Positions 40,984-41,170 of a DNA stretch of 64,000 bases are shown piece after piece. Numbering within the stretch: position 1 is the stretch's first letter; each line of letters starts with the position of its first letter. The position numbers and the translations under genes were made by a program. The notes beneath the pieces were generated by a model that was given only the letters and a program-made list of their open reading frames with translations, had not been told where the DNA came from and searched no databases. The stretch is from Felixounavirus LF110P2: sequence record OZ035782.1; one strand, given 5' to 3'.

Positions 40984-41170
40984 GGGCTTTTTCATTTCAG
41001 AATTGTGCAGGTATATTTCTATAGAGAAATCTGTAGAGAAAATTTTGAACTCCAAAGAGAAAATTCATTTTCAAATTGTGCAGGTAATCTCCAAAGGGCT
41101 TTTTCATTTTCAAAACGTGCAGACCCCGCTCAGGTCGGGCAAGAAAAATCATTTTAGAATCGTGCAGGTA
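40984..41170 (+). repeat. four direct ~22-bp repeats ending in GTGCAG in a 340-bp non-coding leader
   Basis: TTCATTTCAGAATTGTGCAGGTA (40991), TTCATTTTCAAATTGTGCAGGTA (41065), TTCATTTTCAAAACGTGCAGACC (41102), TCATTTTAGAATCGTGCAGGTA (41148). Confidence 0.6.

What the first reader, a model, noticed from the sequence alone, without database searches (positions are those of the whole stretch)
40984..41170. Four direct repeats ending in GTGCAG upstream of the small-gene array
The 340-bp non-coding stretch between the macro-domain gene and the first array gene has four ~22-bp direct repeats (CATTTTCA(A/G)AA(T/C)(T/C)GTGCAG(G/A)), two preceded by GGGCTTTTT. Spacing of 35-75 bp and strict conservation of GTGCAG suggest operator or activator binding sites controlling the array. 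Track ORFs here (40997-41194 minus, 41003-41242 plus) are probably spurious.
Basis: seen in the sequence. Interest (0 to 1): 0.5.

Follow-up and report, generated by a model that had tools for sequence, protein, structure and literature searches.

The report
Conserved four-repeat array in Felix O1-like phages
The four repeats are real and form a single non-coding array kept at the same spot in every Felix O1-like phage genus examined, so they look like docking sites for one unknown DNA-binding protein, but sequence alone cannot tell whether the array controls the early genes or starts DNA replication.

Summary
The window is a Felixounavirus (Felix O1-like) genome. The four direct repeats exist exactly as described, at 40992, 41065, 41104 and 41149. 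They are far beyond chance. A weight matrix of the 17-nt core finds only these four sites in the whole genome, and only the four orthologous sites in Erwinia phage phiEa21-4.

The same 3-4-copy, same-orientation array sits after the macro-domain gene's terminator in Felixounavirus, Suspvirus, Mooglevirus, Kolesnikvirus and a Hafnia phage. The constrained unit is bipartite and asymmetric: an A5 or T5 tract, TCATTT, seven variable bases, then GTGC(AG). The last bases are genus-specific, so GTGCAG is strict only in Felix- and Moogle-like phages.

I excluded several readings:
- a coding region;
- a structured RNA;
- a dispersed promoter class;
- a known host-factor site;
- the genome terminus, because the terminal repeat maps to 46670-47250.

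The most likely reading is a protein-binding cis element. Transcriptional control or insulation of the early operon is my first choice (about 0.4). An iteron-like replication origin is a serious rival (about 0.25).

This window has also lost 642 nt carrying the array's canonical sigma-70 promoter. I found no description of the array in the Felix O1 and wV8 genome papers I could read.

The parts
40133..40918 (+). Upstream gene: macro-domain protein (TARG1/DarG/Poa1p-like macro domain, residues 1-168, plus a beta-rich C-terminal domain of unknown fold)
   Evidence: Pfam Macro; PHROG 'phosphatase'; PDB sequence and fold hits to TARG1, DarG and Poa1p; AF2 model with pLDDT 86
40948..40992 (+). Rho-independent terminator of the rIIA-to-macro operon (17-bp stem plus T5); its T-run is the A/T tract of repeat 1
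   Evidence: Terminator scan; only conserved helix in the alignment fold, with G-U/G-C changes; listed as t13, -21.8 kcal/mol, in PMC3185647
40992..41013 (+). Repeat 1, TCATTTCAGAATTGTGCAGGTA (preceded by GGGCTTTTT). This is the only unit that passes a simple sigma-70 scan (TTTTCA-17-TATATT, 40989-41017)
41019..41043 (+). Two AT-rich 12-13-mers, CTATAGAGAAAT and CTGTAGAGAAAAT, followed by an A4T4 run. The same pair follows the last repeat in Hafnia phage Zyzzx
   Evidence: (family D5)
41050..41064 (+). Upstream box CTCCAAAGAG plus the A-tract of repeat 2 (conserved in Felix- and Moogle-like phages)
41065..41086 (+). Repeat 2, TCATTTTCAAATTGTGCAGGTA
41089..41103 (+). Upstream box CTCCAAAGGG plus the T-tract of repeat 3
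41104..41125 (+). Repeat 3, TCATTTTCAAAACGTGCAGACC. Its tail is AGA rather than AGGT, and this is also true of the orthologous Moogle copy
41149..41170 (+). Repeat 4, TCATTTTAGAATCGTGCAGGTA (preceded by GGGCAAGAAAAA, which is orthologous to phiEa21-4 copy 3)
41186..41220 (+). C-rich, G-poor tract. It is present in one of two haplotypes found downstream of repeat 4 among relatives, so it is not a universal part of the element
41220..41221 (.). Junction of a 642-nt deletion relative to the 99.5%-identical phage LF110P2. The missing segment carries the UP-element sigma-70 promoter (TTGACT-N17-TAGTAT), one gene and a promoter/stem-loop cassette
41266..41559 (+). First gene of the small-gene array in this genome (97 aa, phrog_5089, unknown function). 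The deletion leaves it without a promoter of its own

Best explanation
The four repeats are an ancient, selectively maintained array of binding sites for one sequence-specific DNA-binding protein. That protein is unidentified; my guess is that it is phage-encoded. Each roughly 30-40-bp unit offers three features in a fixed orientation: an A5 or T5 tract, which suggests a shape or minor-groove contact; TCATTT; and, 13 bp further on, GTGC plus a genus-specific tail. Three or four units in a row would assemble a nucleoprotein complex directly behind the strong terminator of the rIIA-to-macro operon and ahead of the early small-gene operon.

My preferred function is transcriptional. The complex would insulate or time expression of the early operon, either as a roadblock or repressor or as a recruiter of RNA polymerase to the weak promoter-like units.

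Shown: the anatomy, the uniqueness in the genome, the conservation pattern, and the exclusion of coding, RNA-structure, terminus and known-factor readings.

Inferred: that a protein binds at all, which protein it is, and that the output is transcriptional.

My confidence in the general claim of a 'protein-binding cis element' is about 0.75. My confidence in the specific claim of 'transcriptional control of the early array' is about 0.4.
For: - Only four sites exist in the whole Felix-type genome, and only the four orthologous sites in phiEa21-4.
- The same array, orientation and position occur in five lineages.
- TCATTT and GTGCAG are invariant while the centre and spacers vary. Mean pairwise identity is 0.88 for the core and 0.73 for the spacers, Mann-Whitney p = 8e-4.
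- Copy-specific differences are shared by Felix- and Moogle-like phages. Copy 3 has AGA in both. The duplications therefore predate the split and the cores have been held constant since.
- The array persists next to a macro gene that is only 41% identical.
- A5 and T5 tracts are interchangeable at one position.
- The location fits: between terminator t13 and the operon's UP-element sigma-70 promoter in relatives.
- The unit geometry mimics a promoter, with a W-tract, TCA at the -35 position, a 17-nt gap and then TAnnnT in copies 1, 2 and 4. Copy 1 passes the scan.
- In this window the canonical promoter is deleted, so the array region is the only promoter-like DNA left upstream of gene 41266-41559.
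Against: - No binder was identified. The neighbouring genes show no DNA-binding domain.
- The array lies about 180-225 nt upstream of the promoter's -35 in Felix-, Moogle- and Kolesnik-type genomes (about 100-140 nt in Zyzzx), at a non-conserved distance. This is unusual for operators or class I/II activators.
- The sites have no dyad symmetry.
- The -10-like tails are not conserved across genera: AGGTA, ATAGR and TTATAA.
- A single locus of asymmetric direct repeats is equally typical of iterons.
- No transcript-mapping study of an Ounavirinae phage turned up in my literature searches.
Confidence: 0.4

Rival explanations
1. Replication origin. The repeats are iteron-like sites for a monomeric, two-domain initiator or helicase-loading factor. 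The AT-rich 12-13-mers at 41019-41043, or the AT-rich promoter region downstream in relatives, would act as the unwinding element. The neighbouring strong promoter would give transcriptional activation, as at the T7 primary origin or lambda ori.
For: - There is one cluster per genome, as expected for an essential cis site.
- It consists of 3-4 asymmetric, bipartite direct repeats of about 19-22 bp in one orientation.
- The element is more conserved than the flanking genes.
- AT-rich tandem 12-13-mers within the array are conserved between Felix-type phages and Zyzzx.
- Apart from the terminal-repeat block, this is the only long non-coding stretch I looked at closely.
- The replisome is T7/SP6-like, and the Felix O1 genome paper names no origin (PMC3185647).
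Against: - Spacing is 37-75 nt rather than the contiguous, helically phased 21-23 nt typical of iterons.
- No Rep/O-type initiator was found among the neighbouring or replication-module ORFs that I scanned.
- T7-type replication needs no iterons.
- GC and AT skew do not change at 41 kb.
- There is no similarity to plasmid DNA.
- This window's phage lacks the adjacent promoter and AT-rich tract.
Confidence: 0.25
2. Tandem promoters. Each unit would be a weak or factor-dependent host-RNA-polymerase promoter, with the A/T tract as an UP-like element, TCA at -32 to -30 and the tail as the -10. Four in a row would then drive immediate-early transcription of the small-gene operon, as A1-A3 do in T7.
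For: - Copy 1 scores TTTTCA-17-TATATT.
- Copies 2 and 4 have TAnnnT 17 nt after TCA.
- The Zyzzx tails are TATAAA/TATAAC.
- All units point toward the early genes.
- The window's deletion variant lacks any other promoter for gene 41266-41559.
Against: - The -35 positions are AATTCA and AAATCA in half the copies.
- The -10-like hexamers are not conserved. Moogle has TGCAAT and TCTAGA, phiEa21-4 has GGAACT at the 17-nt register, and copy 3 has none.
- The most conserved bases, TCATTT and GTGC, are not sigma-70 contact positions.
- Relatives already carry a canonical strong promoter downstream.
Confidence: 0.1
3. DNA-entry boundary, analogous to the injection stop signal of T5. The array would mark the inner edge of a block about 6.3 kb long here (about 6.9 kb in relatives without the deletion, roughly 7-8% of the genome). 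That block contains only the small host-takeover genes and the right terminal repeat. The array would hold DNA transfer until those genes are expressed.
For: - By homology to Pr103Blw, the terminal repeat maps to 46670-47250. The array therefore lies just beyond the promoter of the last operon before the right end.
- A conserved untranslated repeat region that is better conserved than its coding neighbours is what characterises the T5 iss (10.1101/866236).
- The Kolesnikvirus copies are 7/8 matches to a DnaA box.
Against: - Two-step transfer has never been reported for Felix O1-like phages in the papers I read.
- It is unknown which end enters first.
- DnaA-box matches in the window are 5-6/8, which is no better than shuffled controls.
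- I did not look for A1/A2 homologues.
- The 7-8% figure may be coincidence.
Confidence: 0.07
4. No present function. The units would be leftovers of tandem duplication of the terminator's 3' flank. TTTTTCATTT also follows other Felix O1 terminators. The units would then serve at most as homology patches for recombination at the edge of the hypervariable early region.
For: - Terminators t5, t13 and t35 of Felix O1 end in CTTTTTCATTT or TTTTTTATTTT.
- A degenerate fifth copy lies inside the terminator loop (family D6).
- A mosaic junction falls inside the array in the pSJ21/BPS17L1 lineage.
- Haplotypes diverge immediately after copy 4.
Against: - Neutral repeats would not keep 12 invariant positions in every copy across genera that differ by 25-60% elsewhere, while the centre and spacers drift.
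- Copy number and order are retained in five lineages.
Confidence: 0.08

Closest known systems
Iterons of theta-type origins (plasmid RepE/pi/RepA sites, P1 oriR, phage P4 ori/crr)
   Same: Several asymmetric, bipartite direct repeats of about 17-22 bp, all in one orientation, present at one locus per replicon, with AT-rich short repeats close by.
   Different: Spacing is wide and irregular (37-75 nt). No Rep-type initiator gene was found. The phage has a T7/SP6-like replisome, which is not known to use iterons. There is no sequence similarity to any plasmid.
phi29 p4 binding-site array in the early/late control region
   Same: A virulent phage with one intergenic control region that holds four A-tract-containing sites for one small phage protein, which assembles a nucleoprotein switch.
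   Different: The p4 sites are inverted repeats that overlap the promoters they regulate. Here the sites are direct, asymmetric and 100-225 nt from the nearest canonical promoter.
T5 injection stop signal region (iss)
   Same: A conserved untranslated repeat block, more conserved than the neighbouring genes, about 8% of the genome from a terminally repeated end and bordering a block of small early genes.
   Different: The T5 region is 1.2-1.7 kb long, with palindromes and eight paired DnaA boxes. Here there are 180 bp of direct repeats without significant DnaA boxes, and two-step entry is not known for this phage group.
Tandem early promoters of T7 (A1, A2, A3)
   Same: Three or four similar units in the same orientation at the head of the early region, each with promoter-like geometry.
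   Different: The T7 units are near-consensus sigma-70 promoters. Here the conserved bases are not the sigma-70 contact bases, and the -10-like tails differ between genera.

Membership tests
Sigma-70 promoter (tandem) | -35 and -10 hexamers matching TTGACA/TATAAT at 16-18 nt spacing | tested here: not met
   Only copy 1 passes (TTTTCA-17-TATATT, 9/12). Copies 2 and 4 have 2/6 at -35, and copy 3 has no -10.
Sigma-70 promoter (tandem) | Promoter hexamers conserved in orthologous copies of relatives | tested here: not met
   The tails are AGGTA in Felix- and Moogle-like phages, ATAGR in phiEa21-4 and TTATAA in Zyzzx. The Moogle hexamers lack A-11.
Sigma-70 promoter (tandem) | Mapped transcription start downstream | not testable with these tools
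   My literature searches turned up no transcript 5'-end data for any Ounavirinae phage.
Phage-specific promoter class (phage RNA polymerase or middle/late type) | Many copies dispersed upstream of operons | tested here: not met
   The weight-matrix scan of whole genomes finds only the four clustered sites.
Iteron-type replication origin | Three or more direct repeats of 17-22 bp in one orientation at a single locus | tested here: met
Iteron-type replication origin | Contiguous, helically phased spacing (about 21-23 bp) | tested here: not met
   Spacing is 73/39/45 in Felix-type, 75/41/45 in Moogle, 37/37/39 in phiEa21-4 and 43/53 in Zyzzx.
Iteron-type replication origin | Adjacent AT-rich unwinding element | tested here: inconclusive
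   AT-rich 12-13-mers lie at 41019-41043. A 27-nt pure A/T stretch lies about 170 nt downstream in relatives but is deleted here.
Iteron-type replication origin | Cognate initiator gene | tested here: not met
   No Rep/O/initiator domain appears in the 20 neighbouring and replication-module ORFs scanned. The scan was partial, not the whole proteome.
Iteron-type replication origin | Origin activity | not testable with these tools
   This needs marker-frequency analysis or an origin-trap experiment.
Operator/activator array of a phage transcription factor | Sites overlap the regulated promoter or lie at a fixed short distance from it | tested here: not met
   The array lies about 180-225 nt upstream of the -35 in Felix-, Moogle- and Kolesnik-type genomes and about 100-140 nt in Zyzzx, so the distance is not conserved. 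The promoter is absent from this window.
Operator/activator array of a phage transcription factor | Sequence-specific sites under purifying selection | tested here: met
   Twelve positions are invariant in all copies of seven lineages. Core against spacer gives p = 8e-4.
Terminase recognition site / genome terminus | Located at or next to the physical DNA ends | tested here: not met
   The annotated 581-bp terminal repeat of Pr103Blw and the start of Ro111lw map to window 46670, about 5.5 kb away. The contig ends near the array carry Tn5 adapter junctions.
Structured non-coding RNA | Conserved secondary structure or an Rfam match | tested here: not met
   Rfam hits all have E >= 0.5 and scores far below the gathering thresholds. 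The folding z-score is -0.75. No compensatory pairs occur outside the terminator.
Known host-factor sites (DnaA, IHF, MarA/SoxS/Rob, CRP, Fis, sigma-54) | Match to the consensus above composition-matched controls | tested here: not met
   The best matches equal the mean for shuffled units. DnaA reaches 7/8 only in phiEa21-4, which is the 95th percentile of shuffles.
T5-type injection stop region | Conserved untranslated repeats near 8% from a terminally repeated end | tested here: inconclusive
   The position is about 6.3 kb from the inferred right end here and about 6.9 kb in relatives. Entry polarity and two-step transfer are unknown.

The most novel reading that the evidence does not exclude
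The array is a DNA-entry checkpoint, a compact counterpart of the T5 injection stop signal. If the right end of the Felix O1-type genome enters first, only the terminal 7-8% carrying the small host-takeover genes and their promoter would be inside the cell when the four protein-binding repeats reach the entry site and stall transfer. That would make two-step genome delivery a feature of a second, unrelated phage group.
Probability: 0.07. Interest if true: 0.8.

Novelty: new member of a known kind. Interest (0 to 1): 0.45.

Why it matters
Felix O1 is a classical typing and biocontrol phage, and its relatives are widely used as therapeutic candidates. The genome paper states that neither its transcriptional timing nor how terminators are bypassed is understood, and it names no origin (PMC3185647).

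This array is the only motif of its kind that my whole-genome scans found in a Felix-type genome and in phiEa21-4, and it is conserved across every Ounavirinae lineage I examined. It is therefore a concrete handle. A pull-down on 180 bp of DNA should identify the binding protein. Marker-frequency and 5'-end sequencing would then say whether the array marks the origin, an early-operon switch or an entry signal.

It also matters for engineering. The array borders the hypervariable early region where insertions and deletions are tolerated, such as the 642-nt deletion in this genome.

Tried and rejected
1. Genome end or packaging site. Several full-length IMG/VR contigs end 45 nt after repeat 4, which at first looked like a physical terminus.
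   - The ends abut Nextera adapters and share a 9-bp Tn5 target duplication.
   - Other contigs of that metagenome break at repeated cassettes.
   - The PhageTerm-defined terminal repeat of two Felixounaviruses maps to 46670.
   - I therefore rejected this reading.
2. A fifth copy after rIIB (36820). It scores below 9 bits in the weight-matrix scan, so I rejected it.
3. Structured RNA. Rfam, single-sequence folding and alignment folding were all negative.
4. Coding potential of the track ORFs. Rejected.
5. Known host-factor consensus sequences. None matched better than shuffled units.
6. Homology to plasmid or E. coli DNA. None found.
7. Intrinsic curvature, using a wedge model written from remembered parameters. 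The array is at the 74th percentile, which is unremarkable.
8. The macro protein's extra C-terminal domain as the binder. The model is confident, but all fold hits fall in the macro domain, so there is no evidence for DNA binding.
9. Degenerate pattern scans of viral and bacterial collections. The hits were dominated by chance matches and were uninformative.
10. GC and AT skew. No change at the locus.
11. FIfi106 'bp 1'. It lies in coding DNA and has a 122-bp duplication, so it says nothing about this locus.

Full report
**Identity of the window.** A 3-kb query around the finding matches 256 phage records, nearly all Felixounavirus. The best is LF110P2 at 99.5%. Gene order matches Felix O1:
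- rIIA, 33227-35593;
- rIIB, 35673-36782;
- a run of small genes;
- a macro-domain 'phosphatase', 40133-40918;
- a non-coding gap;
- an array of small genes running to about 46.2 kb.

| Copy | Coordinates | Sequence |
|---|---|---|
| 1 | 40992-41013 | TCATTTCAGAATTGTGCAGGTA |
| 2 | 41065-41086 | TCATTTTCAAATTGTGCAGGTA |
| 3 | 41104-41125 | TCATTTTCAAAACGTGCAGACC |
| 4 | 41149-41170 | TCATTTTAGAATCGTGCAGGTA |

All four are on the + strand, with start-to-start spacing of 73, 39 and 45 nt. Copies 1 and 3 follow GGGCTTTTT, and copies 2 and 4 follow an A-tract. In copy 1 the T-run is the tail of a strong rho-independent terminator at 40948-40992. That terminator is t13 of Felix O1, at -21.8 kcal/mol.

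The repeats are not a chance event. The 22-mer with up to 3 mismatches gives 3 hits against 0 in 100 shuffles. I built a weight matrix of the 17-nt core from copies in four genera. It scores the four sites at 23-27 bits, and the next best site in the 86.5-kb genome (the window plus the rest of LF110P2) scores 16.5 bits inside a gene. The same holds for the complete genome of Erwinia phage phiEa21-4: four sites at 22-27 bits, then 15.9 bits. The motif is therefore a single-locus element and not a dispersed promoter class.

**Comparative anatomy.** The region is detectable by DNA similarity in 289 phage records, down to 73% identity in Kolesnikvirus. In every case the array sits right after the macro gene's terminator and points toward the small genes:

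| Lineage | Copies | Spacing (nt) |
|---|---|---|
| Felix O1, ASO1A, LF110P2 | 4 | 73/39/45 |
| Suspvirus | 4 | 73/39/45 |
| Mooglevirus | 4 | 75/41/45 |
| Kolesnikvirus (phiEa21-4, FIfi106) | 4 | 37/37/39 |
| Hafnia phage Zyzzx | 3 strong + 1 degenerate | 43/53 |
| pSJ21/BPS17L1 lineage | 3 | 75/45 |

The pSJ21/BPS17L1 lineage has lost copy 2, and its macro protein is only 41% identical to the window's.

I aligned seven Felix, Susp and Moogle lineages. Positions 0-5 (TCATTT) and 13-18 (GTGCAG) are invariant in all four copies. Positions 6-12 and the spacers vary. Mean pairwise identity is 0.88 for the core and 0.73 for the spacers (Mann-Whitney p = 8e-4). Copy-specific peculiarities are shared between genera: copy 3 has AGA rather than AGGT in both Felix- and Moogle-like phages. 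The duplications are therefore older than the genera, and each copy has been held constant independently.

Beyond these genera the tail changes in concert within a genome. It is GTGCATAG in Kolesnikvirus and GTGCTTATAA in Zyzzx.

Each core is preceded by an A5 or T5 tract. The tract can swap at an orthologous copy, since copy 3 has T5 in Felix-type phages and A5 in pSJ21. This suggests that DNA shape is read there rather than base identity. A further box lies upstream of the tract and is genus-specific: CTCCAAAGRG in Felix- and Moogle-like phages, CTGGCAAG in Kolesnikvirus and ACGATAG in Zyzzx.

**What the array is not.**
- *Not coding.* The two track ORFs are open by chance. Spacing differs by 2 nt between genera, Zyzzx has no open stretch of 40 codons or more, and the only family hit is a 13-16-residue weak match.
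- *Not a structured RNA.* Rfam gives only noise. The folding z-score is -0.75. The alignment fold finds no compensatory pair outside the terminator.
- *Not the genome end.* I followed this lead seriously, because four near-full-length IMG/VR contigs stop within the C-rich tract at 41186-41220. However:
  - those ends abut Nextera adapters and share a 9-bp CTCTTACTC, which is the signature of a Tn5 insertion into continuous DNA;
  - other contigs of that sample break at repeated cassettes;
  - Felixounaviruses have short terminal repeats of 581-613 bp (PMC8303462, PMC6454146);
  - the annotated repeat of Pr103Blw and the first base of Ro111lw both map to window 46670.
- *Not a recognisable host-factor site.* DnaA, IHF, marbox, CRP, Fis and sigma-54 consensus sequences match no better than shuffled units.
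- *No similarity to plasmid or E. coli DNA*.

**Context that bears on function.** In complete relatives the array is followed by three features:
- a variable 40-70 nt segment with two haplotypes, only one of which is C-rich;
- a conserved stretch of about 100 nt;
- a near-consensus sigma-70 promoter with a long A/T UP element (TTGACT-N17-TAATAT), annotated as a promoter in ASO1A.

The distance from copy 4 to that -35 is about 180-225 nt in Felix-, Moogle- and Kolesnik-type genomes, and about 100-140 nt in Zyzzx. It is not conserved.

This window has lost 642 nt relative to LF110P2, with the junction at 41220/41221. The missing segment carries that promoter, one gene and the next promoter/stem-loop cassette. 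No record in the phage collection matched across this junction. Gene 41266-41559 is thus left with the array as the only promoter-like DNA upstream of it. A simple scan finds TTTTCA-17-TATATT in copy 1.

The neighbouring genes give no clue to a binder. The macro protein is TARG1/DarG/Poa1p-like, with an extra beta-rich C-terminal domain of unknown fold. The small flanking ORFs and ten replication-module ORFs carry no DNA-binding or initiator domain.

**Interpretation.** The conservation pattern has four features:
- two short invariant blocks 13 bp apart;
- a tolerated centre;
- a shape-type A/T tract;
- a flank that co-varies within each genome.

Together these look like the footprint of a protein that contacts successive grooves of an asymmetric site. 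Three or four such sites in a row imply a multi-protein complex. I rate that general conclusion at about 0.75.

What the complex does cannot be decided from sequence.
- *Transcriptional role (0.4, my first choice).* I favour insulation, repression or recruitment at the head of the early operon. The array sits between a terminator and the early promoter, points with transcription, and has promoter-like unit geometry.
- *Iteron-like replication origin (0.25).* One essential-looking locus per genome, asymmetric direct repeats and conserved AT-rich 12-13-mers inside the array all fit. The wide, irregular spacing, the lack of an initiator gene and the T7-like replisome argue against it.
- *Tandem weak promoters (0.1).*
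- *T5-like DNA-entry stop (0.07).* The array lies just inside the last 7-8% of the genome next to the right terminal repeat.
- *Neutral terminator-tail duplications (0.08).*

**Novelty.** The Felix O1 genome paper lists direct repeats of 24 bp or more and five putative promoters, but not this array. It also states that temporal regulation is not understood. The wV8 paper does not mention repeats at all, and the phiEa21-4 paper could not be read. In kind, the element is a familiar sort of object, an array of protein-binding direct repeats. The motif, its subfamily-wide conservation and its unknown binder appear to be undescribed.

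Noticed in passing
window 46250-47830 (terminal repeat about 46670-47250): This is a 1.6-kb non-coding block between convergent operons. By homology to the annotated 581-bp terminal repeat of Pr103Blw and the start of Ro111lw, the virion DNA ends map here. The block is packed with dozens of short repeats (YTGTTAR, CTGTAAAG, TATAGAGAG), often 11 nt apart. It is a likely packaging or terminase-recognition region in a phage group with no recognised small terminase.
   Followed up: partly
window 41220/41221: This genome lacks 642 nt present in its 99.5%-identical relative LF110P2 (L002 1722-2363). The missing segment holds the UP-element sigma-70 promoter of the early operon, one gene of about 140 aa and a promoter/stem-loop cassette. 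No phage record in the collection matched across this junction. It could be a natural deletion or an assembly artefact.
   Followed up: partly
window 41186-41220; L017, L018, L056, L058: Four IMG/VR contigs from metagenome 3300045988 break inside this C-rich tract, whose minus strand carries G5, G5 and G4 runs. Nextera adapters are fused directly to the ends, and the same 9-bp CTCTTACTC junction appears in two differently indexed libraries. The cause could be a Tn5 hot spot, a coverage gap at a G-rich structure or a nick. It remains unexplained.
   Followed up: partly
window 40133-40918: The 'phosphatase' is a TARG1/DarG/Poa1p-type macro domain (residues 1-168) fused to a poorly conserved beta-rich domain (176-261) that is confidently modelled but has no fold match. 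DarG-like macro domains reverse DNA ADP-ribosylation, so this could be an anti-DarT counter-defence gene.
   Followed up: partly
window 41565-41593, 42169-42197, 43426-43454: Promoter/stem-loop cassettes (TTTACA-N17-TAAAGT-like hexamers wrapped around a GGGGCTT...AAGCCCC hairpin, then a shared 5' leader CAGATAAAGAGCTTTACCACT) recur before the small genes. They correspond to the 57-bp repeats noted in the Felix O1 paper. They resemble the mobile promoter-early stem-loops of T4-type phages, and they are where several metagenome contigs break.
   Followed up: no
window 41019-41043; L005 1536-1565: The AT-rich tandem 12-13-mers CTATAGAGAAAT and CTGTAGAGAAAAT, between repeats 1 and 2, recur almost unchanged after the last repeat of the distantly related Hafnia phage Zyzzx. 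They also resemble the box plus A-tract upstream of repeat 2. This is a second conserved component of the region.
   Followed up: partly
L184 (pSJ21), L185 (BPS17L1), L042, L055: One Felixounavirus lineage carries a very divergent macro allele (41% identity), a different terminator and only three repeats. It becomes Felix-type again from repeat 3 onward, so a recombination junction lies inside the array.
   Followed up: partly
L007/L008 (Erwinia phage FIfi106, OR284297.1 ends): This record was opened at a PhageTerm-predicted terminus, yet it starts and ends with a 122-bp duplication inside what looks like an unannotated coding region downstream of rIIA. The predicted short terminal repeat for this Kolesnikvirus is doubtful, or else it differs from the Felixounavirus one.
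   Followed up: no
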